A stretch of DNA of 64,000 nt from Candidatus Heimdallarchaeum aukensis (GTDB lineage: Archaea; Asgardarchaeota; Heimdallarchaeia; Heimdallarchaeales; Heimdallarchaeaceae), in assembly GCA_021513695.1 (NCBI GenBank), contig CP084166.1, positions 1,664,001 through 1,728,000 on the forward strand. The letters are read 5' to 3'. Positions 25,954 to 53,292 of this stretch are shown in pieces. Made by a program: the position numbers and the translations under genes. The notes beneath the pieces are model-generated. The model was not told the origin of the DNA and searched no databases. It saw only the letters and a list, made by a program, of their open reading frames with translations. Each line of letters begins with the position of its first letter. The first letter of the stretch is position 1.

Positions 25954-27480
25954 CTAATTAAAAAACTCATCTAGCGATGGTTGTTGCTTTTTATTCTTTT
26001 TTTGTTTCTTCTGCATCTCTTTCACTTTGGATTCCTTACTTTTTTGAGCTGTGGATTCAGTGTTTTTTTCTTTTTTCTTTTTCTTACTTTTTTTAACATT
26101 CAGTTCTTCAGTTTCTTCATCTCGCTTTTCTTCTTCAAAGTGTGAAATTAAAGGTGTTACTTTTGAAGGAGGAGACGAGAGAGTTACTTCTTTTGCAAAA
26201 TCAACATACAATTCATCCATATATTCCAGAATTAACTTTGTTTGTTTAGCATTTTTTTCAGTTAAATAATCGATCTCATCTGCTTCAAGATTCAACCAAG
26301 TAGCTATTCCTGCAGCCATTTTTGCATCATTTTTAAAAATGGATCTCATGTATGGATAAATGTCTTGTTTAAATTGAGAAGAAGAGCAGTGAAATTTTGA
26401 TTTGCTTTTTTTAATGATTGACGTGAGCTTAGCTTCTTTCATTCTTAATCTGCCAATTTTCGCCCAGTAGGAGGGAAAAGTATATCTGACTTGCTTATAG
26501 GGCGAAGTTTTCATTAATCCTACACTAGAAATAAATACAAAAAAATATTTCAGAAAAATCCAATTTTGAGTTAAATATGCTTGAGATAAATAGAAGTCTG
26601 CTTCCGCTATAAGTGAATACATATTATCTAATTCTTTTGGACTTTTAGCTTGCTTATAGCTGTGCTCGTCTACGTAATTTAACAACTCTCTGTAATCTAC
26701 ATCTAAGCCCTCAATAGCTTTTCTTGCTGATTCTAAGCTTTTTGCGTAATAAATTTTTGATAATGCTTGATTTAGTTTTTGTTCTTGATTTCTTTGGGAA
26801 AATTCAAATTTTACATCAACCGATAATGAATCTTTAAGAGCAATACTTTCTAAATCATTCAAAGCTGAACGTGCATCACCTGAGCTGTTTTTTGCGATGT
26901 CCAATAAAACTTCATCATCAATTGTAAGATTCTCTTTTTTAACAATACGCCTTAGTAACTCAATTATTTCATCAATTGTTAAATGATGAAATTCAACAAT
27001 TTTCATGTGCCTTTTTACAGAACTTAACGATTTAGCTTCAACATCATTAGCTGTGGCAATGATGGGAATTTGAGTTCCCTTAATTGCTTTTTCTAAAGCT
27101 TTTCCTCCTCCTCTATCTTGATTTCCAAATAATCCATCAGCTTCATCAACAATGATCATTTTTCTAACTGTTCCACCTTGCAAAACTGTTCCTTCAGTGG
27201 AAGCCTTACCAACAAGTAATTCAACAGCTTTTTTATTTCTTTTATCACTTGCATTGACTTCAATATACTCATAATTATATTTTCTAGCTAAATATAAGGC
27301 TACGCTTGTTTTTCCTACTCCAGCAGGACCAACTAATAAAATAACTTTTTTCTTTTCTTGATTCCAATTTCGTAGCCATCTTTCAATTTCTTTTACTACA
27401 AGCTTATTTCCAACAAAATCATCAAGTACTTTGGGTCTATATTTCTCCACAAATGGTAAATTAAGAGATTCGGAACTCAT
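25954..27480 (-). CDS. rfcL: replication factor C large subunit
   Basis: EKYRPKVLDDFVGN, Walker A GPAGVGKTS and Walker B IIVDEADG are present. There is a long Lys-rich C-terminal tail ending in the PIP-box QPSLDEFF. Start taken at MSSESLN (27480) rather than the upstream track start. Confidence 0.8.
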   Translation of the reverse strand: MSSESLNLPFVEKYRPKVLDDFVGNKLVVKEIERWLRNWNQEKKKVILLVGPAGVGKTSVALYLARKYNYEYIEVNASDKRNKKAVELLVGKASTEGTVLQGGTVRKMIIVDEADGLFGNQDRGGGKALEKAIKGTQIPIIATANDVEAKSLSSVKRHMKIVEFHHLTIDEIIELLRRIVKKENLTIDDEVLLDIAKNSSGDARSALNDLESIALKDSLSVDVKFEFSQRNQEQKLNQALSKIYYAKSLESARKAIEGLDVDYRELLNYVDEHSYKQAKSPKELDNMYSLIAEADFYLSQAYLTQNWIFLKYFFVFISSVGLMKTSPYKQVRYTFPSYWAKIGRLRMKEAKLTSIIKKSKSKFHCSSSQFKQDIYPYMRSIFKNDAKMAAGIATWLNLEADEIDYLTEKNAKQTKLILEYMDELYVDFAKEVTLSSPPSKVTPLISHFEEEKRDEETEELNVKKSKKKKKEKNTESTAQKSKESKVKEMQKKQKKNKKQQPSLDEFFN

Positions 27481-27538
27481 AAGGCAAAATAGAATAAAAG
27501 TTTTAACTATAAAAAATATTCTCAAGAAGAGAATGGAG

Positions 27539-30362: not shown

Positions 30363-31196
30363 TTAATTTCCCTTCTTCTTAAATTCCTCTATTGCTTTTA
30401 ACAATTCTGCTCGATAGCTCTTTGAAACTTCAAGACATTCTTTAGCTATAGGAACAAGTTCATCAGGTTTTAAGACCCCTATTCCTCCTTTTTGAGCAGA
30501 AACAATGTGTTCTTCTTCATCAAATCCAAAAGTAATTCTGCAATCTGCAATTCTTTCTTCTTTTAATATTGGATCTATGATTCTATGTTTTCCTATTTTA
30601 TAGCTAGTTACAGTTACAGGATAATGATCTAATTCAAGGACCTCTTTTTCGTCAAGGACTTCAGGTTCTCCTTCTTCATTTATTTTTACTTTAGGAATCT
30701 TTGTTGTAGATAATGCAGCTAAGGAAGCCAAGGTTGCAGCATCAATCAGATTCCCGTCAGCATTCAAAACATACATATCAATGAAGAGTATCCAAACATA
30801 TTTTCCTGGTACAATACATAGCTTTGAGAGATCAATACAATGTGATTCTCTAATTGCTCTATCTGTAACTCGTGCTAATTCTATTGCATCGTCTCCTGGA
30901 GGACCAGATTCATAATATGGTGATGCAATAGGTGAAAGTTCTGCACTTGTTGTAATCACTCCAGAGTCTGGAGTATCTGGAAAAGGAGAACCTAGTGTTG
31001 CTTTTACACCAGCAATAATCTTTGTTTCACCTAGAGTTACTATAGCTGAACCTTCTGCTTTTGTTTCAACAAAATTCAACTCAAATTTAATTGGTCTATG
31101 TTCCTGTTTTTCTCTTCCTCCAATTCTCTTTCCTTGATCTAATAACGTTAAAATGTAATCTTTTTCTATTTCTGAAACAACATAATCATCTGACAT
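30363..31196 (-). CDS. rrp42: exosome complex component Rrp42 (RNase PH-like, inactive subunit)
   Basis: RNase PH-like fold (GRIGGREKQEHRPIKFE..., GSAIVTLGETKIIAGVKA). Located directly downstream of Rrp41. Confidence 0.8.
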   Translation of the reverse strand: MSDDYVVSEIEKDYILTLLDQGKRIGGREKQEHRPIKFELNFVETKAEGSAIVTLGETKIIAGVKATLGSPFPDTPDSGVITTSAELSPIASPYYESGPPGDDAIELARVTDRAIRESHCIDLSKLCIVPGKYVWILFIDMYVLNADGNLIDAATLASLAALSTTKIPKVKINEEGEPEVLDEKEVLELDHYPVTVTSYKIGKHRIIDPILKEERIADCRITFGFDEEEHIVSAQKGGIGVLKPDELVPIAKECLEVSKSYRAELLKAIEEFKKKGN

Positions 31197-31198
31197 TT

Positions 31199-32380
31199 TT
31201 ATTCCTCCAAGTCATTTATTTCTTCATGCTCTGTTTCATCGTCCTCTGATTCAGTGGTATTAGTAGTTGTAGTATCATCATTTTCTTCAGGTTTTTCAGT
31301 TCCTAGACTGTTTAGTTCCTTTTCTAATTCTTTTTCATCTTCATCTAGCTCTTCATTCAGTTCTTCGGCTATGTCACTAACTAAATCTTGATGCTCATCA
31401 GTTTCAACTTCAGAGACTTCTTCAACTTCAGAGACTTCTTCAACTTCAGAGACTTCTTCAACTTCAGAGACTTCCTCAATTTCTATGGTTGTTTTTTCAC
31501 CAGTCTTCTTTTCTTCAGTTTCTTCAGACGCAACAGCTTCATCAATAGCTGTTTCATCAACTGAAGCTTCGCTTTCAGCTAAAGATTGGCTTACAATTTC
31601 CATGGTATCCTCTTCTTCTGCTTCTTCCTCTTCTGGTTCTCCAGCAAATTCTGCTCTAATTTGAGCATATTTTTCTCTTAAAGCTTCCTTCTGAATTTCA
31701 TATATTTGCTTAGCACCTTCAATTGCTAGTTTTACTGCTTCTTCAAATTGCTCAATTGTAAAAACTCCATCTAATTGCAAGAGAGAGATTTCGTCCAATG
31801 TTGCAGAATATCCAATTGGGATATCGCCAGAGCCTTTTTGATCTTCAATATCATGAAGATCCAATACTACTGTGTCATTTACCAACCCAGCTGCGACCCC
31901 TGAAATTATTCCTCGCATGGGGATACCAGCATCAGCCAAAGCTGTGCATGCGGCAGTTAAGCTTGCACACCTTGTTCCACCATCTGCTTGTAAAACTTGA
32001 ATATAAATATCAATTGTCGTTCTTGGAAAATCCTTGGTAAGGATCACAGAATTTAAAGCATCTGATATGACTTTTGATATTTCTCTTTCCCTTCTTGAGG
32101 GAGCAGGGCTTTTTCTTTCAGCTACAGAAAAAGTCGACATTCTATAATAACACTGAACCAATGCTCTATCGGGTAAAGCTAAATGTTTTGGATGAAGTTC
32201 TCTTGGTCCATAAACTGCAGCTAGAATTTTATTATTTCCCATATATATGAGAGCACTACCATCAGCATTATTTAAAACACCTACTTCTATTTTCGTAGGA
32301 CGAAGTTCATTAAATTTTCTTCCATCAGTTCTTTTTCCTGTTTTTTCATCAATTAATTTTACTGAACCATCACCGGCCAT
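31199..32380 (-). CDS. rrp41: exosome complex exonuclease Rrp41 (RNase PH) with an acidic C-terminal extension of about 145 aa containing tandem EVSEVE repeats
   Basis: Residues 1 to about 245 carry the RNase PH catalytic core (GRKFNELRP, TGKRTDGR, LQADGGTR). Residues 250-393 are about 45% Asp/Glu, with 4x EEVSEV encoded by 18-bp DNA repeats. Confidence 0.85.
   Translation of the reverse strand: MAGDGSVKLIDEKTGKRTDGRKFNELRPTKIEVGVLNNADGSALIYMGNNKILAAVYGPRELHPKHLALPDRALVQCYYRMSTFSVAERKSPAPSRREREISKVISDALNSVILTKDFPRTTIDIYIQVLQADGGTRCASLTAACTALADAGIPMRGIISGVAAGLVNDTVVLDLHDIEDQKGSGDIPIGYSATLDEISLLQLDGVFTIEQFEEAVKLAIEGAKQIYEIQKEALREKYAQIRAEFAGEPEEEEAEEEDTMEIVSQSLAESEASVDETAIDEAVASEETEEKKTGEKTTIEIEEVSEVEEVSEVEEVSEVEEVSEVETDEHQDLVSDIAEELNEELDEDEKELEKELNSLGTEKPEENDDTTTTNTTESEDDETEHEEINDLEE
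31402..31478. repeat. 4 copies of an 18-bp tandem repeat (CAACTTCAGAGACTTCTT) inside the rrp41 3' region
   Basis: Direct reading of sequence. Encodes (EVSEVE)n in the Rrp41 tail on the minus strand. Confidence 0.8.
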
Positions 32381-32384
32381 ATAA

Positions 32385-33071
32385 TCACCTTTTTGAGTTT
32401 AAAAATTCATTAATTCTATTCGTTAGATTTTGTGTATGAGCTTCTCGCTCAATTTTCTTAATTGCTTCAATAGCACGTAATTCGTCTTGAATTTTTTTTC
32501 CTTGAACCCATATTCTTCCGTTTTGCCCTGTTATAATTTGGCATCTTGTTAATCTTTTTATCATATTTATCATACTACCTTTCTTTCCTATCACTCTTGG
32601 AATATGAGCAGCTTCAATTTCTATTACTCTCCCTCCTTTTAATTTTCCAAGTCCACGCTCTTTGGTTGAAAGGTTAGGATCTTTTGTTCTATCAAAAGCA
32701 ATTATTTTTGCTAAAACGATATCTCCAACATCGAAAATTTTTCTTGCGTCAGCCATTATTGGGTCAAAACGTTTTGTTACAGCATTCATACTTGTGAGAA
32801 CACCAACATATGGAGAACCAATGTCTAGTATCCAGTTTGTTAATCCAACATCTATAACTAATCCAATTACTAGATCTCCTGCTCTTGGCAGATATTTACC
32901 TTTTAATGATTTTACAGAGATATAATCTCCTCGATCTCTAAATAATCCAACAACAGTAGCATAGTAATTGTTGTCTTGTCTTACGACTCCACTACCATAC
33001 TTAAAATGACCGGTCGCAAGTTTATCTCCCGGTACAACTATGGCATGATTTTCAAAAAATATTTCATTCAT
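32385..33071 (-). CDS. rrp4: exosome complex RNA-binding subunit Rrp4 (S1 + KH)
   Basis: N-terminal domain VVPGDKL. S1-like domain with GDLVIGLV. KH motif IPRVIGKKGSMINMIKRLTRCQIITGQNGRIWV. Sits upstream of rrp41 in the canonical order. Confidence 0.75.
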   Translation of the reverse strand: MNEIFFENHAIVVPGDKLATGHFKYGSGVVRQDNNYYATVVGLFRDRGDYISVKSLKGKYLPRAGDLVIGLVIDVGLTNWILDIGSPYVGVLTSMNAVTKRFDPIMADARKIFDVGDIVLAKIIAFDRTKDPNLSTKERGLGKLKGGRVIEIEAAHIPRVIGKKGSMINMIKRLTRCQIITGQNGRIWVQGKKIQDELRAIEAIKKIEREAHTQNLTNRINEFLNSKR

Positions 33072-33117
33072 ATTTTTTCACAACTCCTAATAATAATTGT
33101 TTCTTTACACCATTTCT

Positions 33118-33870
33118 TTATTCGGATAATCGCTCTAACACTTTTACTTGCGATTTTCCTTTTGACTTTGTCATTATTTCATCTAAGAAGTCTGCTTGTA
33201 ATCCAGCGGGTATTTGAATAACAGCAACTAGTGAACCGTCATCAAGCCATTCTTCCTGTAACAATTCTCCTTTACCGTGCAAAACTCCATAAATTGGTCC
33301 GGTATAGCTAGGAGGTATTTTTACAGCTAATTTTACAGTTTCTAGCCTAATTGGCATGACGGGTTTTAATAGTTTAATAATTTCATGAGCTTGATCTTTA
33401 ACTGGTTCATTAAACTTTATATTCACTCCAAGATCCAAAATGGCTTTTTCTAATCGATCCTTTGGAATTGGGGTATTTGTACGAGGATTTATACAATGTA
33501 GATGAATATAATCAACAATTTCTGCTCTCTTTTCTTTTTGGATTTCTTGTCTTTGCTCTTGTGTGAGCTGTAAATTTCCTTCTTTAAGTATTTTTACTGC
33601 TATTTCCCGTTCTGTTAGATCTCCAAAAACAGCTATAATGTCATCTTCACTTGCTTTTTCTCCTCTTGAAAGATTTTCATAGACGGTATATGACTCAAAA
33701 ATATCATCAACAGGAACATCTTCTCCTTGCCTAAACAACCAAGCAGGTTCAGGATTAACCAATAATTCAAACCTTCTACCATGTGTTTGCAATCGAACTA
33801 TCGATTTTCCTCTCAAATCAATACGTCTATCAATAGTGCTGCCAGTATATCCATGACCCATTTTTTTCAC
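33118..33870 (-). CDS. SBDS-family ribosome maturation protein
   Basis: RLQTHGRRFELLVNP...AWLFRQGED...ENLSRGEKASEDDI...ILKEGNLQLTQEQR matches the SBDS N-terminal FYSH domain. It is upstream of rrp4 as in the archaeal exosome superoperon. Confidence 0.7.
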   Translation of the reverse strand: MKKMGHGYTGSTIDRRIDLRGKSIVRLQTHGRRFELLVNPEPAWLFRQGEDVPVDDIFESYTVYENLSRGEKASEDDIIAVFGDLTEREIAVKILKEGNLQLTQEQRQEIQKEKRAEIVDYIHLHCINPRTNTPIPKDRLEKAILDLGVNIKFNEPVKDQAHEIIKLLKPVMPIRLETVKLAVKIPPSYTGPIYGVLHGKGELLQEEWLDDGSLVAVIQIPAGLQADFLDEIMTKSKGKSQVKVLERLSE

Positions 33871-34023
33871 ACTCTAAAATGTCAAAGTTGAAATTTTCCT
33901 TTTTAATAAGATATTCAACACCTAATTTATAAGGCTTATTAAGATTGAGAATAAACAAATATTATATCAATACTTAAAAAAAGTAGAGGAACAGACACAT
34001 AAATAAGAAAGTAGTTGAAATAT

Positions 34024-34863
34024 ATGCCTGAGGGTCCCGAAGTAGAATGTGTAAAAAATGCATTACAAAAACTTGTAGGTGAAAAAATCAAAAAAATAGG
34101 ATTAACAGAGCAATCACAAAAATATAAGAAATATCAAGGAAAAAGTAAACAATTTGAATATTTTATTGGAAAAACTATCAGAAAAATCACTAGATATGGA
34201 AAATATCTTGTTTGGGAATTCGACTCCAAAAAAGTGATCCTTAATCATCTAGGGATGACAGGAATGTGGTATTTAAGTAATAATGGAGAGGATATAAAAA
34301 GTGCAACTCATCCTAAACTATTTATAGAAACAGTATCTGGAATCAATGCTGTTTTTAGTGATATTAGAAATTTTGGTCAATTAAGAATTTTTAACAATCT
34401 TTCGGAAATAAAGAAATATTCTCCCATAAAGGATCTTGGGATAGATGGATTAACTCTGCCCTTTCCAACTGAACTTTTTATTAAAAAATTAGATGAGAAA
34501 AAGTATGTGAATAAACAGATTGCTAACATTCTACTTGATCAGAAATTAGTTGCAGGAATAGGTAATATCTATAAATCTGAATCCTTACATCTAGCAAAAA
34601 TAGATCCCCGTAAAATTGTAAAGAATCTTTCATTAGAAGAGAAAAAAAGATTAGCTAGTGCTATTTCACAAATACTTCAAAAGGCAGTAAAAAGTGGTGG
34701 AAGCTCAATAAGTACTTATAGATTGCCATCAGGAGAAGAAGGTAGTGGACAACAATGGCATCAGGTATATCGAAAGCAATATTGCGCAAACTGTAACTCA
34801 AAAATCGAAAAAATAATTCAAAACAAAAGAACAACATACTTTTGTCCAAAATGTCAAAAGTAA
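34024..34863 (+). CDS. Fpg/Nei-family DNA glycosylase (formamidopyrimidine-DNA glycosylase / endonuclease VIII)
   Basis: N-terminal MPEGPEVE (catalytic Pro2, Glu3), internal H2TH region, C-terminal zinc finger CANCNSKIEKIIQNKRTTYFCPKCQ. Confidence 0.75.
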   Translation: MPEGPEVECVKNALQKLVGEKIKKIGLTEQSQKYKKYQGKSKQFEYFIGKTIRKITRYGKYLVWEFDSKKVILNHLGMTGMWYLSNNGEDIKSATHPKLFIETVSGINAVFSDIRNFGQLRIFNNLSEIKKYSPIKDLGIDGLTLPFPTELFIKKLDEKKYVNKQIANILLDQKLVAGIGNIYKSESLHLAKIDPRKIVKNLSLEEKKRLASAISQILQKAVKSGGSSISTYRLPSGEEGSGQQWHQVYRKQYCANCNSKIEKIIQNKRTTYFCPKCQK

Positions 34864-39407: not shown

Positions 39408-40073
39408 TTATGAAGAAACTTTTTGTGATTCTAAAAGATATAATCTTTTCTTTAATGAATGATACTTTTTAGCAAATTCTAGGCTAGAGACTTCATAATC
39501 CTCAAACTGTTGTTCAAGTGCAAATAATTCATTCTCAACTTTTAATATTTCATCCTCAAGTAGTTTTGATTTCTCTTGAGCAATAACATTTTCAGAAACA
39601 CTGCTTCTCTCTTTTCGCTCGATCTCTGCTAATTCCCTCTTTTTCTGTTCTAATATTCGAACTAATTGAGATTTTTGATTATTTAACATCGCAATTTCTG
39701 ATGTTGGATCTTCCCATGTAGTTTCAGCATATGAAACCATTTTTGCTCTTACTCTTTGAAACAGACGCTTTACTTCTGCAATTACTTGAAAAATATGATA
39801 AGTTGGCCTCCACCGAGCTAACATTCTCATAGAAAGGATTCCATCTTCGACATTTGGATGTTCCATGGGAGTATTGACATAGATAGTTGGAGGAACATTT
39901 GGAAAATCATTAGGAATAACAATTTCTATTTCAGCATTTTTGGTGCCATTATAGGTTTGAACTGGAACAAAACCTTTCCATATTCTTAAATTGCCATCTT
40001 TAGGTTCAAAACCATAAGCTCTTTCATAAATAAATTGGGCCTCTCGACTTAGAATTTCATCGGAAATGGTCAT
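39408..40073 (-). CDS. UEV (inactive ubiquitin-E2 variant) domain + coiled-coil protein, TSG101/Vps23 (ESCRT-I)-like
   Basis: N-terminal about 120 aa, IEIVIPNDFPNVPPTIYVNTPMEHPNVEDGILSMRMLARWRP, has the E2/UEV beta-hairpin-PP-HPN-x3-G layout. Ser/Met stand where the catalytic Cys would be, so it is non-catalytic. The C-terminal 100 aa are continuous heptad coiled coil. Confidence 0.55.
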   Translation of the reverse strand: MTISDEILSREAQFIYERAYGFEPKDGNLRIWKGFVPVQTYNGTKNAEIEIVIPNDFPNVPPTIYVNTPMEHPNVEDGILSMRMLARWRPTYHIFQVIAEVKRLFQRVRAKMVSYAETTWEDPTSEIAMLNNQKSQLVRILEQKKRELAEIERKERSSVSENVIAQEKSKLLEDEILKVENELFALEQQFEDYEVSSLEFAKKYHSLKKRLYLLESQKVSS

Positions 40074-40278
40074 ATTTAATCAACGCTCCTTGAATCTAAA
40101 TAGCGAATCCACTATAAATAGCTTCCTTTTTAACTTTAAAGAATTCTATTTTATTTACAATATCAAATATTTCATTTCTAAAACTTTGTTTTTGATAATA
40201 GCTAAATATTTTCTCAAAATTAGGTATCTCTAACTTTAAAAATAAAATAGTTTGAGTTAGATTCAAACAGTGGAAAAA

Positions 40279-42114
40279 ATGAGAATCGCTATCATCGATA
40301 TAGAAAAATGTAAACCTTCAAAGTGTGGCAAAGTGTGTTACAAATACTGCCCTCCAGTTAGAATGGGACAGGAAACTATTACATTTGATGGACCAGAAAA
40401 TAAAGCAATAATACATGAAGAACTGTGTACTGGTTGTGGTATTTGCATTAAAAAATGTCCTTTCCATTGTATAAAGATCATAAATTTGCCTGAAGAGCTG
40501 GATGATCAAGTCACACACAGATATAGCATTAATGGCTTCAAATTACATCGACTACCAATGCCTGCATTTGGAAGTGTGATTGGATTAGTGGGTCAAAATG
40601 GTTCAGGAAAAACTACAACCCTTAATATTCTATCAGGAGAGTTAAAACCAAATCTTGGTAATTACGAGAATCCTCCTGAATGGGACGAAGTAATAGAACA
40701 TTACAGAGGAACAATAATACAAGATTACTTTTCAAAGCTAGTAAATAAAGAATTAAGAGTAGTAAAAAAACCACAAAGCGTTGACAGACTACCAAGAGTA
40801 GTTAAAGGAAAAGTCTTCGAATTGTTGAAAAAAGTCGACGAAAGGGGAATTATAGACGAAATAAAAACAGAGTTTTCTTTAGAAAATGTATGGAACAGAG
40901 AGATTTCTAAACTTAGTGGAGGAGAACTTCAACGACTTGCGATTGCTGCCACAGTGGCAAGAGATGCTGATGTATACATGTTTGATGAACCAACAAGTTA
41001 CTTAGATATAAATGAAAGAGTTCGTATTTCTAAATATATTAATGATATGCAAGCAGCAAATAGAACAATTATTGTAGTTGAACATGACTTAGCAATGCTG
41101 GATTATGTAAGTGAAAATATTCATATTTATTATGGACAAGCGGGAGCTTATGGAATTGTAAGTCAACCAATGAGTGTCCGTGAGGGAATAAATGTTTTCT
41201 TAGATGGCTATATACCCTCAGAAAACATGCGATTCAGAGATACAAGTATAGTTTTTAGAAAAGCTTCACTTGCTTCAACAAGCTTATCACATAGAATTGC
41301 AATTAGATATGGAGATATAACAAAAGAATTCGATACATTTAAACTACAAGTAAAAGGAGGAGAAATACATAAGGGAGAAGTTGTAGGAATAATAGGTCCG
41401 AATGGTATTGGTAAAACAACTTTTGTCAAGATACTAGCAGGAGTTCTAGAACCCACTACAATGTCTCAACCTGTTGAATTATTAAGTGAAATCCTTGAAA
41501 TAGATAAGAAACAAGCAGATGATGAAGAGAGAAAAGTTATTGTTAGTCATAAACCCCAATACCTCTACACTGAATCAGAAGAAACAGTCGAAAGCTATCT
41601 AGGAAAAATAAGCCCTGAAATTTTTACGGGGGCATGGTTCAGAACAGAAATAGTTAGACCACTAGATATAGAGAAATTAAAAGATCAACCATTAAGTGAA
41701 TTGTCAGGGGGAGAACTTCAAAGAGTCTCTATTGCAGCGTGTCTATCTAGAAAAGCACATTTATATCTGTTAGATGAACCATCAGCATATATTTCTGCAG
41801 AAGATAGAGTAAGCACTGCAAGAGTGATAAAAAGAGTAATCAGTCATTATGAAGCAACAGCACTAGTAGTAGAACACGATGTTATGATGCTTAATTTTCT
41901 AAGTGATAATCTCATTGTCTTTGACGGAACTCCAGGAAGAGAAGGAAAAAGCACTTCTATTATGTCTCTACAACAAGGAATGAATAAGTTTCTCAAAAAA
42001 ATGGAAATAACTTTCAGACAAGACCCAAAAACCCTTCGACCACGCGTTAATAAGAAAGATTCTCAATTGGATAAAAAACAAAAAGCTGAAGGAAAATATT
42101 TTGTTGCTCTTTAA
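40279..42114 (+). CDS. abcE1: ABCE1 (RNase L inhibitor / Rli1 ribosome recycling factor)
   Basis: N-terminal Fe-S domain (CKPSKCGKVCYKYCP; CTGCGICIKKCP) and two ABC cassettes (GQNGSGKTT / LSGGELQR and GPNGIGKTT / LSGGELQR). Confidence 0.9.
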   Translation: MRIAIIDIEKCKPSKCGKVCYKYCPPVRMGQETITFDGPENKAIIHEELCTGCGICIKKCPFHCIKIINLPEELDDQVTHRYSINGFKLHRLPMPAFGSVIGLVGQNGSGKTTTLNILSGELKPNLGNYENPPEWDEVIEHYRGTIIQDYFSKLVNKELRVVKKPQSVDRLPRVVKGKVFELLKKVDERGIIDEIKTEFSLENVWNREISKLSGGELQRLAIAATVARDADVYMFDEPTSYLDINERVRISKYINDMQAANRTIIVVEHDLAMLDYVSENIHIYYGQAGAYGIVSQPMSVREGINVFLDGYIPSENMRFRDTSIVFRKASLASTSLSHRIAIRYGDITKEFDTFKLQVKGGEIHKGEVVGIIGPNGIGKTTFVKILAGVLEPTTMSQPVELLSEILEIDKKQADDEERKVIVSHKPQYLYTESEETVESYLGKISPEIFTGAWFRTEIVRPLDIEKLKDQPLSELSGGELQRVSIAACLSRKAHLYLLDEPSAYISAEDRVSTARVIKRVISHYEATALVVEHDVMMLNFLSDNLIVFDGTPGREGKSTSIMSLQQGMNKFLKKMEITFRQDPKTLRPRVNKKDSQLDKKQKAEGKYFVAL

Positions 42115-48664: not shown

Positions 48665-48789
48665 ATTAATTAGTTCTTTTCGCTTTTTGCAGCAGTTTAC
48701 ATTTCTTTTTTCGTAATTGTAACTTGTTAATTGAACATTCTCTTTTAAAAAAGCAATATTTAATTAATTATTCAGTATTTTTTTCTTTA

Positions 48790-50370
48790 ATGAGTAACTC
48801 TTCTACTTTTCAAATTGTTATCCCTCAATCAGGACATCATGAACCAATTACTGTAATTAAGGAAATAAATAGATTAATTTTCACTGGAGATGCCTCAGGT
48901 AAAATTTGTATTTGGAATACATCTTTTGATTCTGAATTAGGTTTTATTAAAGCTCATTCCTCTTCTATTACTGATATTGAATGGTTCCCTTTTTCACCTT
49001 CTATTATCACATCATCACAGGGTTTAGATATTCGCTTATGGTCATGGGATAACTTTTCATTACTGCAATCGCAACAAGTTCATGGGTCCGTTGTTATTAA
49101 CATTGACTTTCTTGGTGACTATATTATCACAGGAGGACGTGACAGATTACTAAAGAAATGGTCTTTTTCTGAGGGAAAATTTCATCTTGTAAAACAGGTT
49201 AAAATTCCTTATTTAGAAGAGTTTTTTGTTTTTGACGATAAAATTCTTATTTCTTGTTCTGACGGATCAATTTCTATTTACGATTCAGATTTTAACCCCT
49301 TATCTTATTTAACCTTGAAAAGAAATAAACTTGTATCTGCAATTAGGAAATCAGGAAAATACCTTTCTACATACAAGAAAGACCCTTATACTGTTATTGG
49401 ACATTTGGAGGGTGTTCGAGGTCTTTCTGTTACTTGTTTCACTTTTGATGAAAAATTTCTTTATTTAGGACACTTCTATGGCATCATTACAGTATGGAAA
49501 AAGAAGGATTTCAAGCTTTCACATATTTTTGTTTCTCACGACAAAAATATTACGTCTATTCATATATTTAAAGGAAAAGTTGTAACAATTGCTCTTGATT
49601 CTAAGGTTGCAGTTTTTGATATAGCCAAAGAAAAACATCATTCCTATGAATTGCCTTATCGTCCTCTATGTTTAATTCAATTAAAAAATGAAAATTTTGT
49701 TATTGGGTTTGATAATGGTTTAATTGGAGTTTATGATAGTAATTTTAATGAAATCAAAAAAAGAGTTCCTGTTCAAAATATTAATTGTTGTTCAATTTCT
49801 CCTGAATTTATTTTAATAGGTACTAATAATGGGTATGTTAAACGATACACTATTCCAAATCTTGAAGAAATAGCACACTTCCATATTAATTCATCAATTC
49901 TAGGAATTTTCTACTATGATAGTATGATAGCTATTATTGATAGTGATAGTAATCTTAGAATATATGAAGCAAATTTAGCTTTTTCAGAGATTAAGCAATT
50001 ATTAATTCCTTTGAGAAAAGAAGAACTAACACTACAAGGATATAATAGATACATTGTTTTGTCTCCCAATTTGATCTTTGATTTTGAAAAGATGGAAATT
50101 ATGAAGGGAGAAGTCTCCTCTTCAACGAAAAAGAAATATTCAGAGTCAATAGTATACTCTTTTTCTTTTGAAACAGGAAATATTATTCTTAACATTGATG
50201 AAAATAAATTAAACATGTTTCTTGAAAAAGGAGACTACTCTGTCTATCCTGAAGGCATTTTGAGAAGTTTGAAAAAACTGATTCACAATGTTTCCTCACC
50301 TTTAAGACAGATTGGTGAATCTACTTGGATTAACATTGACATTCTTGAACAAGCAAGAAAACTCAGATGA
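48790..50370 (+). CDS. WD40-repeat (beta-propeller) protein
   Basis: Multiple WD-like repeats (GKICIWNT, DIRLWSWDN, LLKKWSF, ITVWKKKD) are spaced about 40-45 aa apart. The track starts at TTG 48724; ATG is at 48790. Confidence 0.55.
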   Translation: MSNSSTFQIVIPQSGHHEPITVIKEINRLIFTGDASGKICIWNTSFDSELGFIKAHSSSITDIEWFPFSPSIITSSQGLDIRLWSWDNFSLLQSQQVHGSVVINIDFLGDYIITGGRDRLLKKWSFSEGKFHLVKQVKIPYLEEFFVFDDKILISCSDGSISIYDSDFNPLSYLTLKRNKLVSAIRKSGKYLSTYKKDPYTVIGHLEGVRGLSVTCFTFDEKFLYLGHFYGIITVWKKKDFKLSHIFVSHDKNITSIHIFKGKVVTIALDSKVAVFDIAKEKHHSYELPYRPLCLIQLKNENFVIGFDNGLIGVYDSNFNEIKKRVPVQNINCCSISPEFILIGTNNGYVKRYTIPNLEEIAHFHINSSILGIFYYDSMIAIIDSDSNLRIYEANLAFSEIKQLLIPLRKEELTLQGYNRYIVLSPNLIFDFEKMEIMKGEVSSSTKKKYSESIVYSFSFETGNIILNIDENKLNMFLEKGDYSVYPEGILRSLKKLIHNVSSPLRQIGESTWINIDILEQARKLR

Positions 50371-50415: not shown

Positions 50416-50997
50416 ATGCATAACATATTATTTATTACCCACAATAAACATAAATTCGAAGAAGCGTATGAAAAGGCTAAATTATTTAATATTAACTTGC
50501 AGTGGATTAACGTAGAGTACGAAGAAATTCAAGATGATAGTCTTGAAGAGATTGCTCGTTCAAGTTGTTTAAAAATCCTAGAACTTAGACCAGACTTAAA
50601 GGACAAATCTTTCTTCATTGAAGATGCTGGTTTGTTTATTGATTATCTGAAAGGTTTCCCTGGTCCTTATTCTTCATATGTATTCCGTACAATAGGTAAT
50701 CATGGCATTCTAAAATTGCTTTATGATGTTCCAGATAATAAACGTTCTGCTTTTTTTAAGTCAGTGATAGCTTATTACAACGCTGGACAAATTGAACTGT
50801 TCTCAGGGATAGCTCAAGGCAAAATAATCAAAGAATTAAGAGGAACACAGGGATTTGGTTTTGATCCTATTTTTATGCCAGTAGGGAGTAACAAAACTTT
50901 CGCTCAAATGAATAAAGAATCAAAGAATTTAAAAGGACACAGAGGAAAAAGTCTTCAAGAACTCTTCACGTCCCTATCAAACCGCCTTCGTCTCTAA
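50416..50997 (+). CDS. non-canonical purine NTP pyrophosphatase (Ham1/RdgB/ITPase)
   Basis: ITHNKHKFEE, FFIEDAGLFI and GFGFDPIF motifs are characteristic of the Ham1 family. Confidence 0.8.
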   Translation: MHNILFITHNKHKFEEAYEKAKLFNINLQWINVEYEEIQDDSLEEIARSSCLKILELRPDLKDKSFFIEDAGLFIDYLKGFPGPYSSYVFRTIGNHGILKLLYDVPDNKRSAFFKSVIAYYNAGQIELFSGIAQGKIIKELRGTQGFGFDPIFMPVGSNKTFAQMNKESKNLKGHRGKSLQELFTSLSNRLRL

Positions 50998-51014: not shown

Positions 51015-51467
51015 ATGGCAAGAATGCATGCAAGAACAAAAGGAAAAGCTGGATCTACAAGACCTTATCGTAATGAAGCTCCAGATTGGTTGGAATATGA
51101 TAAAGAATTTATCTTAAAGAAGATAGAAGAACTTAGAAGGCAAGGTTTACCATCTGCAATGATTGGTGTAATATTGAGAGATCAATATGGAGTTCCTTCA
51201 GTTAAAGAAGTGTTAGGAAAAAAACTCGTTAAAATCTTAGAAGAAAAAGATTTGAAACCAAAGTATCCTGAAGATTTAACCGCACTAGTACGTAAAGCTG
51301 TTAACATCCGAAGGCATTTGGAAGAAAATCCAAAGGACTTACATAATCGTAGAGGACTTATGTTAGTCGAATCTAAGATTAGACGATTAGTTAAATACTA
51401 CAAGAGAAAAGGTGTATTTCCACCAAACTTCAAATATCAGCCAGATAAAGCTGGGTTATTGCTTTAG
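51015..51467 (+). CDS. rps15: 30S ribosomal protein S15 (uS15, S13e-type)
   Basis: [18 protein letters not shown] and the C-terminal [31 protein letters not shown] match the archaeal S15 signature. Confidence 0.85.
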
Positions 51468-51521
51468 GAACCAATTTTTCCTTTCGATAGTCTTTTATTT
51501 TTCTTTTTTTATGTTCAATAA

Positions 51522-52976
51522 GTGGAAAAGATGAGTGAAGAGGTCACTGAAGAGATTTATACAAACTTAAAAAATATGGCAAAAGAATTTTCATCTCTAA
51601 TCCAAAATACTCTTGGAACACATTTAATTTTAACAAATCCTACAATTGATGGGTTGTGTTCGTCATCAATTATATTTGACTTGTTATCAGATAAAAAAAG
51701 CGGAGTGCAAGTTTCTTTTAAAAAAACAACACGAAATTTACAGAAACTAAAAGAAAAAAAATTTGATAATATTTGGCTTATAAATTTTAAACTAACAAAA
51801 GAAGATATTGAGGTATTGAAAGAGAGCAATAAAACAATTTTTATTATAAATTATAGGATGAATAAAGAAGTTTTTTCAATGTTCAATAAGAATGAAATGA
51901 TGCATGTCTTATCTTCAGTGTCTCTAAATTTAAATGAAAGATTCCTTACTTCATCAGGGTTATTATATTTTGTAGCAAAAGCATATAAAGAGGACTATTA
52001 TAAATATGGAATTCAAGCTCTTTTAGGTGCTCTAGCTGAAGGGCAGATAGAAACATCAAATCAAGAGTTTATGGGTTTTAACAGATTTATTCTTAATGAA
52101 TTAATAGATGCAAATATTCTTTCTCTTGTTCATGGTACTAGAATAAGGGGTAGAGAAACAAAACCTATTCATTTAGCTCTTATGCACTCAATTGACCCAT
52201 ACTTTCCAGGTTTAACTGGAAATGAGGAAGCTTGTACTGCTTTCATTTCTAGAATTGGAATAACAATGAAAGATCAAAATAATGAATGGAGAAAAATAAG
52301 TGATCTCACAAAAAAAGAGATGCAAACATTAAATGATGCTTTAATTTCACTAATTGTTAGCGAAGGTAAAAATGTTAATGACATAAGTAAACTTATTGGA
52401 CCTATTTATGTTTTGAAAAATGAACAAAAAGAGACCTATACTAGAAACTTAGATGAGTTTTTACTCTTAATTGAGGGCGCTGTAAACCTTGAACTTTATG
52501 GTCTTGCTTTCGCTGTGCTATTAGGAAATAGAACATACCAATACAATCAAATTGTATATGAAATAGATAATTATTATGGAGAATCGAGCCAAATCATCGG
52601 TGAGATAGAGAATAATCAGATTACGTTAGAAGATAGAAAATATTTCACAGTAATCAAGGGGTTATCATCTCCAAACAACTATAATGTGTTGAAAAAACTT
52701 TGTCAAAGTGGAAAATTTGACCTTGATAAACCAATATTTTTCCTGTTTAAAAAACGAAAATACAGCGAAATCTTTGTTTACGAATCGTCTGTCCAAAAAA
52801 TCAAAGGATATCTAATATATCCTATCTTTGCAAAGTTAAAAGAAGAGAAAATTATAGAAGAAATTTCCGATAAAGATGACTTTTTTACCATAAAAATACT
52901 AAACGATTCCTTAGATAAAGCTTATTCTGAAATTGAGAATAAAATGGATTATCACTATCACGGAGAAAAGCAATGA
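51522..52976 (+). CDS. RecJ/Cdc45-like DHH-fold protein, probably catalytically inactive
   Basis: It sits directly downstream of rps15, the conserved position of the archaeal RecJ/GAN/Cdc45 homolog. The N-terminal block HLILTNPTIDGLCSSSIIFDLL aligns to DHH motif I (hhhhxhDxDGhxSxAIhxxxL), but the DxD aspartates are replaced by N-P-T. No intact DHH or GGGH motif is visible. Confidence 0.35.
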   Translation: MEKMSEEVTEEIYTNLKNMAKEFSSLIQNTLGTHLILTNPTIDGLCSSSIIFDLLSDKKSGVQVSFKKTTRNLQKLKEKKFDNIWLINFKLTKEDIEVLKESNKTIFIINYRMNKEVFSMFNKNEMMHVLSSVSLNLNERFLTSSGLLYFVAKAYKEDYYKYGIQALLGALAEGQIETSNQEFMGFNRFILNELIDANILSLVHGTRIRGRETKPIHLALMHSIDPYFPGLTGNEEACTAFISRIGITMKDQNNEWRKISDLTKKEMQTLNDALISLIVSEGKNVNDISKLIGPIYVLKNEQKETYTRNLDEFLLLIEGAVNLELYGLAFAVLLGNRTYQYNQIVYEIDNYYGESSQIIGEIENNQITLEDRKYFTVIKGLSSPNNYNVLKKLCQSGKFDLDKPIFFLFKKRKYSEIFVYESSVQKIKGYLIYPIFAKLKEEKIIEEISDKDDFFTIKILNDSLDKAYSEIENKMDYHYHGEKQ

Positions 52977-53025
52977 TGCCATTGACACTAAATATAAACT
53001 GATTATCCAATGGAGGATATTATAT

Positions 53026-53292
53026 ATGAAAAAAGTAAATAAAACAAAAACAAAGATCACCATAATTTGTAAAGATTCTCAAACTGCAAAAATAATAAAA
53101 GAGTGTTTAGAACCAGAAAACGATATTTTAGGCAATCGAACTCAAATTACATCGATTCTGAGAGAGAATAATTTAGAGATAACTATTAATTCTACAGCTT
53201 CAATTTCGTCCTTAAGAAATACTATAGATGATATTTTTCATACTATAAGATTAACAGAGAGTGTTTTATTAAAGACAGAACGAGAGGCATAA
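53026..53292 (+). CDS. hypothetical small protein
   Basis: About 88 aa starting MKKVNKTK, located between the RecJ-like gene and rps3ae. No motif recognised. Confidence 0.3.
   Translation: MKKVNKTKTKITIICKDSQTAKIIKECLEPENDILGNRTQITSILRENNLEITINSTASISSLRNTIDDIFHTIRLTESVLLKTEREA

What the first reader, a model, noticed from the sequence alone, without database searches (positions are those of the whole stretch)
51015..52976. rps15-linked RecJ/Cdc45-like protein that appears to have lost its DHH catalytic residues
In archaea the RecJ/GAN/Cdc45 homolog of the CMG helicase is conserved immediately downstream of rps15. The 484-aa ORF in that position aligns to DHH motif I in spacing and hydrophobic pattern (LILTNPTIDGLCSSSIIFDLL versus hhhhxhDxDGxxSxAIhxxxL). 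However, the metal-binding aspartates are N-P-T, and no DHH or GGGH motifs are evident. An inactivated, purely structural Cdc45-like subunit is the eukaryotic state. Finding it in an Asgard-like genome would be relevant to CMG evolution.
Basis: partly seen in the sequence, partly recalled or inferred. Interest (0 to 1): 0.5.

Follow-up and report, generated by a model that had tools for sequence, protein, structure and literature searches.

The report
Nuclease-dead RecJ/Cdc45 homolog in Heimdallarchaeum
The gene after ribosomal protein S15 in this Heimdallarchaeum genome encodes a well-folded, selectively maintained relative of the archaeal replication nuclease GAN/RecJ that has lost nearly all its catalytic residues, but the loss arose inside one Asgard sub-lineage, so it parallels eukaryotic Cdc45 and is not its ancestor.

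Summary

The catalytic motifs are gone:
- Motif I DxD is T-I-D.
- Motif II Asp is Asn.
- DHH is N-Y-R.
- Motif IV Asp is Glu.
- GGGH is absent.
- The substrate-binding Arg residues are replaced.

The window is from Ca. Heimdallarchaeum aukensis. The same dead version sits in the same Ham1-S15-RecJ-Pcc1-S3Ae cluster in 29 related species, including AB_125. It is under purifying selection (dN/dS 0.10). The CID and the GINS-contact residues are its best-conserved parts. It is most likely a purely structural Cdc45-like CMG subunit.

More distant Heimdall- or Hodarchaeota-labelled genomes keep intact motifs at the same locus. The protein also resembles GAN far more than Cdc45. The inactivation is therefore derived and lineage-specific, another case of a pattern described in 2012 for Crenarchaeota and Halobacteria. 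Interest is moderate. A second, active paralog could not be searched for outside the 64 kb.

The parts
50416..50997 (+). Ham1/ITPase-family gene, first gene of the conserved cluster
   Evidence: Pfam Ham1p_like 3e-44. It lies directly upstream of S15 in the dead-clade loci wherever the contig extends far enough; in L010 and L032 the upstream region is cut off by the contig end.
51015..51467 (+). rps15 (uS15, archaeal/eukaryotic S13/S15 type)
   Evidence: Pfam Ribosomal_S13_N 9e-26 and Ribosomal_S15 7e-19.
51531..52976 (+). RecJ/GAN/Cdc45-family gene, 481 aa, catalytically degenerate (alternative GTG start at 51522 gives 484 aa)
51642..51650 (+). Motif I remnant T38-I39-D40 (active form D-x-D); second Asp retained
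   Evidence: Alignments. D40 is conserved at >=90% in both dead and active groups.
51705..51719 (+). Beta-2 edge strand V59-Q-V-S-F63, equivalent to GAN F55-Q56-L57-S58, which pairs with the Gins51 C-terminal domain
   Evidence: Alignment to 5GHR. GAN contact residues from PMC5100581. Strand E59-63 in the model.
51777..51785 (+). Motif II remnant L83-I-N85 (active form [FL]-x-D; Asp to Asn here, Gly in most of the clade)
   Evidence: The pairwise phmmer alignment places a Lys opposite the Asp instead; under either alignment no Asp is present.
51849..51857 (+). Motif III remnant N107-Y108-R109 in place of D-H-H
52026..52046 (+). Motif IV remnant G166-ALAEG-Q172 (active form GAxxDxQ; Asp to Glu170, Lys in most of the clade)
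52131..52415 (+). CID (CMG-interacting domain) insertion, residues ~201-295; the most conserved part of the protein
   Evidence: Pfam DHH_CID 4e-20. Most invariant columns fall here. Mean top-residue frequency 0.78; dN/dS 0.06.
52497..52532 (+). Helix Y323-GLAFAVLLGN-R334, equivalent to the GAN L313/V315/A316/L319 hydrophobic patch that contacts Gins51C
   Evidence: Alignment to 5GHR. Contact residues from PMC5100581. R334 is invariant.
52611..52901 (+). DHHA1-like domain (residues ~361-457) without GGGH. F415-VYES-419 replaces the S-x-R substrate-binding Arg (GAN R410 is Tyr417 here). I445-SDKDDFF-T453 replaces E-GGGH-NIAAG.
52947..52973 (+). Clade-specific C-terminal motif D-Y-H-Y-H-G-E-K-Q (consensus EYHxKG; Gly478 >=90% conserved); extended by Lys/Glu-rich tails in many relatives
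   Evidence: The last 10 residues of the model have low confidence.
53023..53292 (+). Pcc1 (KEOPS subunit) gene
   Evidence: Pfam Pcc1 9e-6, 26.5 bits against a cutoff of 20.9. Found downstream of the RecJ-like gene in the dead-clade loci except L013, which ends at the contig edge.
53392..54027 (+). rps3Ae (eS1) gene
   Evidence: Pfam Ribosomal_S3Ae 1e-53.

Best explanation
The gene encodes the positional and sequence ortholog of the archaeal GINS-associated nuclease GAN/RecJ (the archaeal Cdc45 counterpart). In the lineage containing Heimdallarchaeum and Heimdall AB_125 it has lost phosphoesterase catalysis and become a non-enzymatic scaffold.

Shown:
- It keeps the whole DHH-CID-linker-DHHA1 fold.
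- It lacks four of the five metal or catalytic motif groups and the substrate-binding Arg and His residues.
- It is conserved in synteny in 29 species.
- It evolves under purifying selection, strongest in the CID and linker.

Inferred: it still docks onto GINS. The contacts would be the beta-2 edge strand and the hydrophobic helix patch that GAN uses for Gins51C. It would reach MCM through the CID, acting as the 'C' of an archaeal CMG helicase without nuclease activity, as Cdc45 does in eukaryotes and as the crenarchaeal and haloarchaeal dead RecJ orthologs are thought to do.

Inferred: the retained Asp40 is structural, and 5'-flap or primer processing is left to other nucleases such as Fen1 and the Dna2-like protein encoded in the same window.

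The inactivation is a derived, lineage-specific event, parallel to the eukaryotic one and not ancestral to it.
For: Identity and fold:
- phmmer: PfuRecJ 6e-20, GAN 5e-14.
- Clade profile: PfuRecJ 5e-56, GAN 7e-53 over the full length.
- AF2 model: pLDDT 89.4.
- Foldseek: 1e-27, TM about 0.7.
- Pfam DHH_CID: 4e-20.

Loss of catalysis:
- Motif table for the window and 29 species.
- 28 columns that are >=90% conserved in active orthologs are lost, including the DxD first Asp, the motif II Asp, D and the second H of DHH, the motif IV Asp, GGGH, and the GAN R307 and R410 equivalents.
- The R373A mutant (the equivalent Arg) abolishes MjRecJ2 activity (PMC11193018).

Function retained:
- dN/dS is 0.10 overall; CID 0.06; linker 0.02.
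- The CID has the highest conservation.
- The GAN-Gins51C contact residues F55-Q-L-S58 and L313/V315/A316/L319 (PMC5100581) align to V-Q-V-S and L/F/A/L.

Orthology:
- The Ham1-S15-RecJ-Pcc1-S3Ae order is kept across the 29 dead-clade loci wherever the contig extends far enough.
- Active orthologs of other Asgard lineages have the same context.
- The neighbourhood was described in PMC3307487.

Derived state:
- The dead clade is monophyletic on a long stem.
- In the exhaustive search the clade's six full-length 50%-identity representatives score 466-779 bits. Scores then drop to 318 bits for active Asgard RecJs. 119 of the top 150 representatives have all motifs intact.
Against: - No biochemical data exist. 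GINS or MCM binding is inferred only from conservation of a few contact positions and of the CID.
- GINS and MCM genes are not in the window, so no co-variation could be examined.
- One metal-ligand Asp (D40) is invariant. Several clade members keep a His of DHH or a DxD, so residual or altered metal binding cannot be formally excluded.
- The rest of the genome could not be searched. If another RecJ/Cdc45 paralog exists, it might be the CMG subunit instead.
- In some Euryarchaeota GAN is dispensable (PMC11193018), so CMG membership of RecJ orthologs is not universal.
Confidence: 0.7

Rival explanations
1. Neofunctionalised protein: the dead RecJ ortholog no longer works in the replicative helicase. 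It uses its conserved CID, DHHA1-like domain and clade-specific C-terminal YHxKG/charged tail for another role, for example ssDNA or RNA binding, or a partner in the translation/KEOPS context in which it is encoded.
For: - The gene sits among ribosomal-protein and Pcc1 genes.
- The clade has about 30 newly fixed residues and a new C-terminal motif absent from active orthologs.
- The protein evolves much faster than its neighbours: 33-38% identity across the clade against about 70% for S15.
- GAN is not essential for replication in some archaea (PMC11193018).
Against: - The S15/Pcc1/S3 context is ancestral for bona fide GAN/RecJ orthologs and does not indicate a translation role (PMC3307487).
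- The residues GAN uses to bind Gins51C, and the CID, are the conserved parts.
- The substrate-binding Arg and His residues needed for nucleic-acid binding in the cleft are lost.
Confidence: 0.15
2. Still an enzyme: the protein retains phosphoesterase or nuclease activity through a non-canonical active site built around Asp40 and other residues.
For: - D40 is invariant.
- Many clade members keep one His of the DHH motif (N-H-x).
- Two keep D-P-D and one keeps D-H-K.
- The DHH-like and DHHA1-like domains remain under purifying selection, with dN/dS 0.18 and 0.10.
Against: - No alternative acidic or His cluster is conserved. The former motif positions vary freely within the clade (N/H/E/D/G; H/Q/N/Y; K/E/D/R), which indicates relaxed constraint.
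- In Heimdallarchaeum itself all of DHH, motif II, motif IV and GGGH are gone, as are the essential Arg and His of DHHA1.
- Single substitutions at these positions inactivate characterised RecJs (PfuRecJ D83A was used as a mutant in 5X4I; MjRecJ2 R373A).
Confidence: 0.06
3. Shared-derived with eukaryotes: the dead Heimdallarchaeales protein represents the state from which eukaryotic Cdc45 descends, by vertical descent or transfer, so the inactivation predates eukaryogenesis.
For: - Both are nuclease-dead DHH-CID-DHHA1 proteins.
- Motif II Asp is Asn in Heimdallarchaeum, as on the Cdc45 branch (PMC5100581).
- The clade profile picks up Cdc45 N-terminal DHH regions weakly, at 1e-3 to 0.08.
- Heimdallarchaeia are among the closest archaeal relatives of eukaryotes (PMC8813620).
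Against: - There is no Pfam CDC45 hit.
- The substitution patterns differ. Cdc45 keeps DxD and the Asp of DHH; this clade loses them.
- Hodarchaeota- and other Heimdall-labelled genomes keep active orthologs at the locus.
- The published tree places Cdc45 nearest Lokiarchaeia RecJ (PMC12680538).
- Asn at motif II is specific to the genus; the rest of the clade has Gly.
Confidence: 0.04
4. Decaying gene or annotation artefact: the ORF is a pseudogenised RecJ that merely remains open.
For: All catalytic motifs are lost, and divergence is fast relative to neighbouring genes.
Against: - An intact full-length ORF is kept in 29 species with conserved synteny.
- dN/dS is 0.10, similar to neighbouring housekeeping genes.
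- The AF2 model is confident.
- There are 17 invariant and about 60 nearly invariant columns over 46 sequences.
Confidence: 0.01

Closest known systems
GAN (GINS-associated nuclease) of Thermococcus kodakarensis and RecJ of Pyrococcus furiosus (PDB 5GHR, 5X4H; arCOG00427)
   Same: - Same four-part architecture (DHH, inserted CID, long linker helix, DHHA1) and the same length, about 480 aa.
- Same S15-RecJ-Pcc1-S3 gene neighbourhood.
- The Gins51C-contact strand and helix residues are conserved.
   Different: - GAN and PfuRecJ have all catalytic motifs and are active 5'-3' exonucleases. Here motifs I (first Asp), II, III, IV and GGGH, and the substrate-binding R307/R410/H440 equivalents, are replaced.
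- It scores far below the NCBIfam equivalog cutoffs: 154 against 360, and 71 against 850.
- It has a clade-specific C-terminal YHxKG motif.
Inactivated S15-linked RecJ orthologs of Crenarchaeota (arCOG00432, arCOG05692, Sulfolobus RecJdbh/Cdc45 SSO0295 family) and Halobacteria (arCOG00428)
   Same: Same phenomenon: the RecJ ortholog encoded next to S15/Pcc1/S3 has an inactivated DHH domain and is interpreted as a dedicated structural replication component (PMC3307487).
   Different: - The lineage is different (Asgard, Heimdallarchaeales) and the event appears to be separate. The nearest relatives in an exhaustive search are active Asgard RecJs.
- The match to the SSO0295 family model is only 33 bits against a cutoff of 350 and covers only the CID.
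- Unlike the Sulfolobus protein it keeps a full-length DHH-like domain. That the Sulfolobus protein lacks the nuclease domain is taken from PMC3307487.
Eukaryotic Cdc45 (PDB 5DGO, 6CC2, CMG structures)
   Same: - Nuclease-dead DHH-CID-DHHA1 protein.
- Proposed analogous role as a non-catalytic CMG subunit.
   Different: - Sequence similarity is marginal: profile E 1e-3 to 0.08, N-terminal region only, and no Pfam CDC45 hit.
- Structural scores are lower than to GAN.
- A different set of catalytic residues is lost. Cdc45 has D83N, H106S and D166Q while keeping others; here almost everything except the second motif I Asp is lost.
- The solved Cdc45 chains are longer, 500-570 residues against 481.
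RecJ-Cdc45 of Methanothermobacter thermautotrophicus (PDB 7BHI) and RecJ2 of Methanocaldococcus jannaschii (7YKV)
   Different: - MjRecJ2 is an active 3'-5' nuclease that does not bind GINS (PMC11193018).
- Sequence identity is only 15-18%.
- The catalytic status of the 7BHI protein was not examined here.

Membership tests
Archaeal RecJ/GAN/Cdc45 family (arCOG00427-type) | DHH fold, CID insertion, long linker helix and DHHA1 fold in one ~480-aa chain | tested here: met
Archaeal RecJ/GAN/Cdc45 family (arCOG00427-type) | Encoded in the conserved S15 - RecJ - Pcc1 - S3Ae neighbourhood | tested here: met
   The neighbourhood is defined in PMC3307487.
Archaeal RecJ/GAN/Cdc45 family (arCOG00427-type) | Intact DHH motifs I-IV and DHHA1 GGGH (active phosphoesterase site) | tested here: not met
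   T-I-D, L-I-N, N-Y-R, GALAEGQ, and no GGGH. No Pfam DHH or DHHA1 hit at E<=1.
Archaeal RecJ/GAN/Cdc45 family (arCOG00427-type) | Reaches the NCBIfam equivalog cutoffs (RecJ_archaeal NF053576; GAN_nuclease NF053575) | tested here: not met
   154.5 bits against 360, and 71 bits against 850.
Archaeal RecJ/GAN/Cdc45 family (arCOG00427-type) | Binds the C-terminal domain of Gins51 through the DHH beta-2 strand and a helix patch | tested here: inconclusive
   The contact positions are conserved in type (V-Q-V-S; L/F/A/L), but no complex was modelled or measured.
Archaeal RecJ/GAN/Cdc45 family (arCOG00427-type) | Metal-dependent ssDNA exonuclease activity stimulated by GINS | not testable with these tools
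   Needs biochemistry. The sequence predicts absence of activity.
Eukaryotic Cdc45 (Pfam CDC45 PF02724) | Significant match to Cdc45 sequence models | tested here: not met
   No CDC45 hit in Pfam at E<=1. The clade profile hits Cdc45 chains only at E 1e-3 to 0.08 over about 110 N-terminal residues.
Eukaryotic Cdc45 (Pfam CDC45 PF02724) | Cdc45 fold is the closest structural neighbour | tested here: not met
Eukaryotic Cdc45 (Pfam CDC45 PF02724) | Catalytically inactive DHH domain | tested here: met
   The pattern of substitutions differs from the D83N/H106S/D166Q of the Cdc45 branch.
Eukaryotic Cdc45 (Pfam CDC45 PF02724) | Stoichiometric subunit of the CMG helicase, contacting MCM2/5 through the CID | not testable with these tools
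   The CID is the most conserved region, but no interaction data exist.
Known inactivated archaeal RecJ orthologs (SSO0295/RecJdbh family, arCOG00432, arCOG05692, arCOG00428) | Sequence membership in the SSO0295 family model | tested here: not met
   32.9 bits against a cutoff of 350; only residues 203-282 (the CID) match.
Known inactivated archaeal RecJ orthologs (SSO0295/RecJdbh family, arCOG00432, arCOG05692, arCOG00428) | S15-linked RecJ ortholog with an inactivated DHH domain (functional class) | tested here: met
   The class is defined in PMC3307487.
Known inactivated archaeal RecJ orthologs (SSO0295/RecJdbh family, arCOG00432, arCOG05692, arCOG00428) | Common descent with the crenarchaeal or haloarchaeal dead clades | tested here: inconclusive
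   No arCOG00428 or arCOG00432 sequences were placed in a tree. The exhaustive profile search shows that the next-best relatives are active Asgard RecJs, and the NJ tree nests the clade among Asgard sequences. This suggests an independent origin.

The most novel reading that the evidence does not exclude
The dead RecJ of Heimdallarchaeales is not just a parallel loss. It is evolutionarily connected to eukaryotic Cdc45, either as its source or through gene exchange around eukaryogenesis. In that case a non-catalytic 'C' subunit of CMG, with its new C-terminal YHxKG/charged-tail module, already existed in an Asgard lineage close to the eukaryotic stem.
Probability: 0.04. Interest if true: 0.75.

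Novelty: new member of a known kind. Interest (0 to 1): 0.35.

Why it matters
This adds an Asgard lineage, the Heimdallarchaeum/AB_125 clade, to the archaeal groups in which the replication-associated RecJ/GAN nuclease has been turned into a non-catalytic protein while staying in its ancestral S15-Pcc1-S3 gene cluster.

The same transition happened on the eukaryotic stem to give Cdc45. The clade therefore offers a natural comparison of what must be kept (CID, GINS-contact strand and helix) and what can be discarded (metal site, substrate-binding Arg and His) when the nuclease becomes a helicase scaffold.

It also cautions against reading the trait as a eukaryote-like ancestral feature. More distant Heimdall- and Hodarchaeota-labelled genomes keep the active enzyme at this locus, so the loss is convergent.

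I found no paper in the searchable library that describes the loss in Heimdallarchaeales. The 2025 Asgard replisome study does not contain the term DHH.

Tried and rejected
- Second active paralog. hmmsearch with RecJ profiles against all six-frame ORFs of the 64-kb window found only this gene. The top 120 hits of two protein searches seeded with active Asgard RecJs contained no protein named Heimdallarchaeaceae or Heimdallarchaeum. This is suggestive only: many hits are unnamed and 1,849 and 3,041 proteins passed the thresholds.
- Supplementary copy-number tables of PMC12680538 are not held.
- A text search for assembly GCA_014730365, to get the order-level taxonomy of an active-type genome, found nothing.
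- NCBI taxonomy gave no sub-class detail for the unclassified MAGs. The lineage labels of the active-type genomes are therefore the submitters' own.
- The afdb50 fold library was unavailable.
- A first MAFFT run on 150 representatives timed out and was repeated with faster settings.
- The pseudogene idea was rejected on dN/dS and conservation.
- Membership in the Sulfolobus SSO0295 family was rejected.
- Motif II alignment is ambiguous. The pairwise phmmer alignment places the motif II Asp opposite Lys, and the multiple alignments place it opposite Asn85. The multiple alignment is preferred, and under neither is an Asp present.
- The NJ tree is crude. It pairs the dead clade with a long-branched Micrarchaeia sequence, probably by long-branch attraction. 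It was used only to show monophyly and the long stem.
Full report
**What is there.** The interval holds two co-oriented genes.
- rps15 is at 51015-51467. Pfam Ribosomal_S13_N and Ribosomal_S15 match at 9e-26 and 7e-19.
- After a 63-nt spacer comes an ORF ending at 52976. It is 484 aa from a GTG at 51522.
- The public annotation of the identical protein is 481 aa, and the N-termini of 45 homologs agree with it. Both favour the ATG at 51531.
- The identical protein is from Candidatus Heimdallarchaeum aukensis, locus tag K9W45_07395, on a 3.08-Mb contig. Its lineage is Heimdallarchaeaceae, Heimdallarchaeales.
- The gene order is Ham1 - S15 - this ORF - Pcc1 - S3Ae - S6e - dCMP deaminase.

**It is a RecJ/GAN/Cdc45-family protein.**
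- In Pfam only the CMG-interacting-domain model DHH_CID matches: 4e-20, residues 210-292 of the 484-aa form. DHH, DHHA1 and CDC45 do not match.
- NCBIfam RecJ_archaeal and GAN models match over most of the length but far below their cutoffs: 154 against 360, and 71 against 850.
- phmmer finds P. furiosus RecJ at 6e-20, T. kodakarensis GAN at 5e-14 and the M. thermautotrophicus RecJ-Cdc45 at 4e-13.
- A profile of the clade finds PfuRecJ at 5e-56, GAN at 7e-53 and the Mth protein at 2e-36, full length.
- An AlphaFold2 model built on 46 sequences is confident: pLDDT 89.4, pTM 0.86.
- By sequence the clade profile reaches Cdc45 only at 1e-3 to 0.08, over the N-terminal ~110 residues.

**The catalytic machinery is gone.** Active S15-linked orthologs from Helarchaeota, Odin, Atabey, Bathyarchaeia and Heimdall-labelled MAGs share five motifs: SH[IL]DADG, [FL]xD[LM]GxGQ, ILDHH, GAxxDxQD and GGGH. 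In 481-aa numbering the window protein has the following.

| Motif | Active consensus | Window protein |
|---|---|---|
| I | D-x-D | T38-I39-D40 (in TNPTIDG) |
| II | x-D | L-I-N85 |
| III | D-H-H | N107-Y108-R109 |
| IV | GAxxDxQ | GALA-E170-GQ |
| DHHA1 | E-GGGH-NIAAG | ISDKDDFFT (445-453) |

The first Asp is Thr38. The second is retained as D40, which is invariant in both dead and active sequences.
- Substrate-binding residues named for GAN are also replaced (PMC5100581). R307 is Asn and R410 is Tyr417. H440 falls in the acidic stretch.
- The Arg equivalent to R410 is essential in MjRecJ2: R373A is inactive (PMC11193018).
- In all, 28 alignment columns that are >=90% conserved among 19 active orthologs are lost or variable in the dead clade.

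**It is a clade character, not a one-off.**
- A scan of one genome per GTDB species found the same type of protein in 29 Heimdall-type genomes. These include Ca. H. endolithica (83% identity) and Heimdallarchaeota AB_125 (35%).
- Across all 29 loci the order Ham1 - S15 - RecJ-like - Pcc1 - S3Ae is kept wherever the contig extends far enough to show it.
- All 29 lack the motif II Asp (Gly or Asn), the motif IV Asp (mostly Lys) and GGGH.
- The former DHH triplet is highly variable: NH[KEDQ], HHE, NQE, EHK, DNK, GNK, DHK, NY[RK]. The first motif I Asp is mostly lost. This is the signature of relaxed constraint at these sites.
- An exhaustive HMMER search of 1.84 billion 50%-identity representatives shows a discrete family. 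Six full-length clusters score 466-779 bits (P0021, P0001, P0040, P0024, P0045, P0214). Scores then fall to 318 bits for active Asgard RecJs.
- Among the top 150 representatives, 119 have all five motifs. The dead-clade representatives have none, apart from chance Asp matches at the motif IV position in two of them. Three unrelated sequences show partial degeneration.

**The gene is functional.**
- Against H. endolithica the gene has dN/dS 0.10. Neighbouring housekeeping genes range from 0.01 to 0.41.
- The strongest constraint is in the CID (0.06) and linker helix (0.02). It is weaker in the DHH-like core (0.18) and the DHHA1-like domain (0.10).
- Conservation within the clade is highest in the CID, with a mean top-residue frequency of 0.78. 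Most invariant columns lie in GRE[ST]xPIHLAL...PGLTGNExACT.
- The residues GAN uses to bind the Gins51 C-terminal domain are the beta-2 strand F55-Q56-L57-S58 and the patch L313/V315/A316/L319 (PMC5100581). They align to V-Q-V-S (59-62) and L325/F327/A328/L331 in YGLAFAVLLGNR.
- The clade has also fixed about 30 residues of its own. It has a C-terminal EYHxKG motif that is often followed by a Lys/Glu-rich tail.

**The inactivation is derived.**
- Proteins with intact motifs and Pfam DHH+CID+DHHA1 occupy the same S15-linked position in other genomes. Some are labelled Heimdallarchaeota (P0078, P0070, P0189, P0198) and one is labelled Hodarchaeota (P0194).
- Those genomes are more distant organisms. 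Their S15 and S3Ae are 42-57% and 35-42% identical to the window's, against 68-77% and 54-64% within the dead clade.
- A rough NJ tree shows the dead clade as monophyletic on a long stem among Asgard sequences.
- Within the clade the protein has diverged to 33-38% identity while S15 stays near 70%. This fits accelerated evolution after loss of catalysis.
- The labels of the active-type MAGs are the submitters' own. I could not obtain GTDB order assignments.
- From my own knowledge, AB_125 corresponds to Kariarchaeaceae and LC-3/Heimdallarchaeum to Heimdallarchaeaceae. Together these form Heimdallarchaeales, which would make the dead state an order-level trait.

**Comparison with what is known.**
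- Makarova, Koonin and Kelman (2012; PMC3307487) described the S15-RecJ-Pcc1-S3 neighbourhood.
- They showed that the RecJ ortholog in it was independently inactivated in Crenarchaeota (arCOG00432, 05692, 05902) and Halobacteria (arCOG00428).
- They inferred that such proteins are dedicated structural replication components, and that the archaeo-eukaryotic ancestor had an active nuclease.
- Oyama et al. (PMC5100581) note that on the Cdc45 branch D83, H106 and D166 became Asn, Ser and Gln.
- The Heimdallarchaeales protein is a further instance of this known pattern, in a new lineage and with more complete erosion than Cdc45.
- It is not a member of the Sulfolobus SSO0295 family: 33 bits against a cutoff of 350.
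- The 2025 Asgard replisome study treats Cdc45/RecJ phylogenetically and finds eukaryotic Cdc45 nearest Lokiarchaeia RecJ, with probable HGT. It does not contain the term DHH (PMC12680538).
- A search for RecJ with Heimdallarchaeota found nothing relevant. The specific observation therefore appears unreported in the searchable library, but it is conceptually expected.

**Most likely mechanism.**
- Shown: a folded, conserved, catalytically stripped GAN ortholog.
- Inferred: it still binds GINS through the beta-2 strand and helix patch, and MCM through the CID. It would then act as a non-enzymatic Cdc45-like subunit of the archaeal CMG helicase.
- Inferred: nuclease tasks are left to other enzymes. 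The same window encodes a Dna2-like nuclease-helicase next to the RFC large subunit.
- Rivals are a neofunctionalised non-CMG role (about 0.15), residual non-canonical catalysis (about 0.06), a direct evolutionary link to Cdc45 (about 0.04) and a decaying gene (about 0.01).

**Limits.**
- Only 64 kb of the genome could be read. It holds no second RecJ-family gene and no GINS or MCM gene.
- No interaction was modelled or measured.

**Verdict.** It overstates the bearing on the origin of eukaryotic CMG, because the loss is a lineage-specific, convergent event of a kind already known in other archaea.

Noticed in passing
window 22948-25938 (+) and 25954-27525 (-): A 996-aa Dna2-like nuclease-helicase matches Pfam Dna2, PD-(D/E)XK and AAA_11/AAA_12. 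It lies tail-to-tail with a 523-aa RFC large-subunit-like AAA+ protein (AAA, RCF1-5 lid, Rad17 P-loop). Asgard Dna2 homologs related to eukaryotic Dna2 are mentioned in PMC12680538. A Dna2 could take over 5'-end processing in a lineage whose GAN is dead, but this is speculation.
   Followed up: partly
window 52947-52973 (C-terminus of the RecJ-like protein); relatives P0003, P0004, P0045 and others: The dead clade has a conserved C-terminal EYHxKG motif (Gly478 >=90%). Many members add long Lys/Glu- or Thr/Glu-rich low-complexity tails of up to about 80 aa. Active orthologs lack the motif. It may be a new interaction or DNA-binding module.
   Followed up: partly
proteins P0252, P0343, P0276 (representative search): A few RecJ-family representatives outside the Heimdall dead clade show partial erosion of catalytic motifs, for example NAD/NHH/no GGGH, NAD/DHE/TSGR, and DHN/GGGR. 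This hints at further independent inactivations in unidentified lineages.
   Followed up: no
window 39408-40073 (-): A 221-aa ORF matches the ubiquitin-conjugating enzyme (E2, UQ_con) domain at 2e-11. It is a typical Asgard eukaryotic-signature protein and lies next to ABCE1/RLI (40270-42114).
   Followed up: no
window 48724-50370 (+): A 548-aa multi-WD40 beta-propeller protein lies directly upstream of the Ham1-S15 cluster. It is conserved at this position in H. endolithica (83% identity, dN/dS 0.14) but was not matched upstream of Ham1 in the other dead-clade loci.
   Followed up: partly
window 19662-21947 (+): A 761-aa protein has an N-terminal TrmB-type winged helix and a long helical, apolipoprotein-like (probably coiled-coil) region. 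This is an unusual architecture of unknown function.
   Followed up: no
window 30363-33870 (-) and 34015-34863 (+): An exosome gene cluster (two RNase PH subunits, an Rrp4-like cap protein and SBDS) is followed by an Fpg/Nei-type DNA glycosylase. The Rrp41-like ORF is long, at 393 aa.
   Followed up: no
locus L033 (Micrarchaeia contig JBAZVU010000138.1): The only non-Heimdall locus recovered by the dead-clade patterns encodes a RecJ with intact DHH and GGH but an unusual motif I (GHYDCDG). It groups with the dead clade in the NJ tree, probably through long-branch attraction.
   Followed up: no
P0001 and relatives: The precomputed annotation lists a Pfam family PF27767 on this protein and on some active orthologs. 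The family is absent from the Pfam copy searched here, so its identity could not be checked.
   Followed up: no
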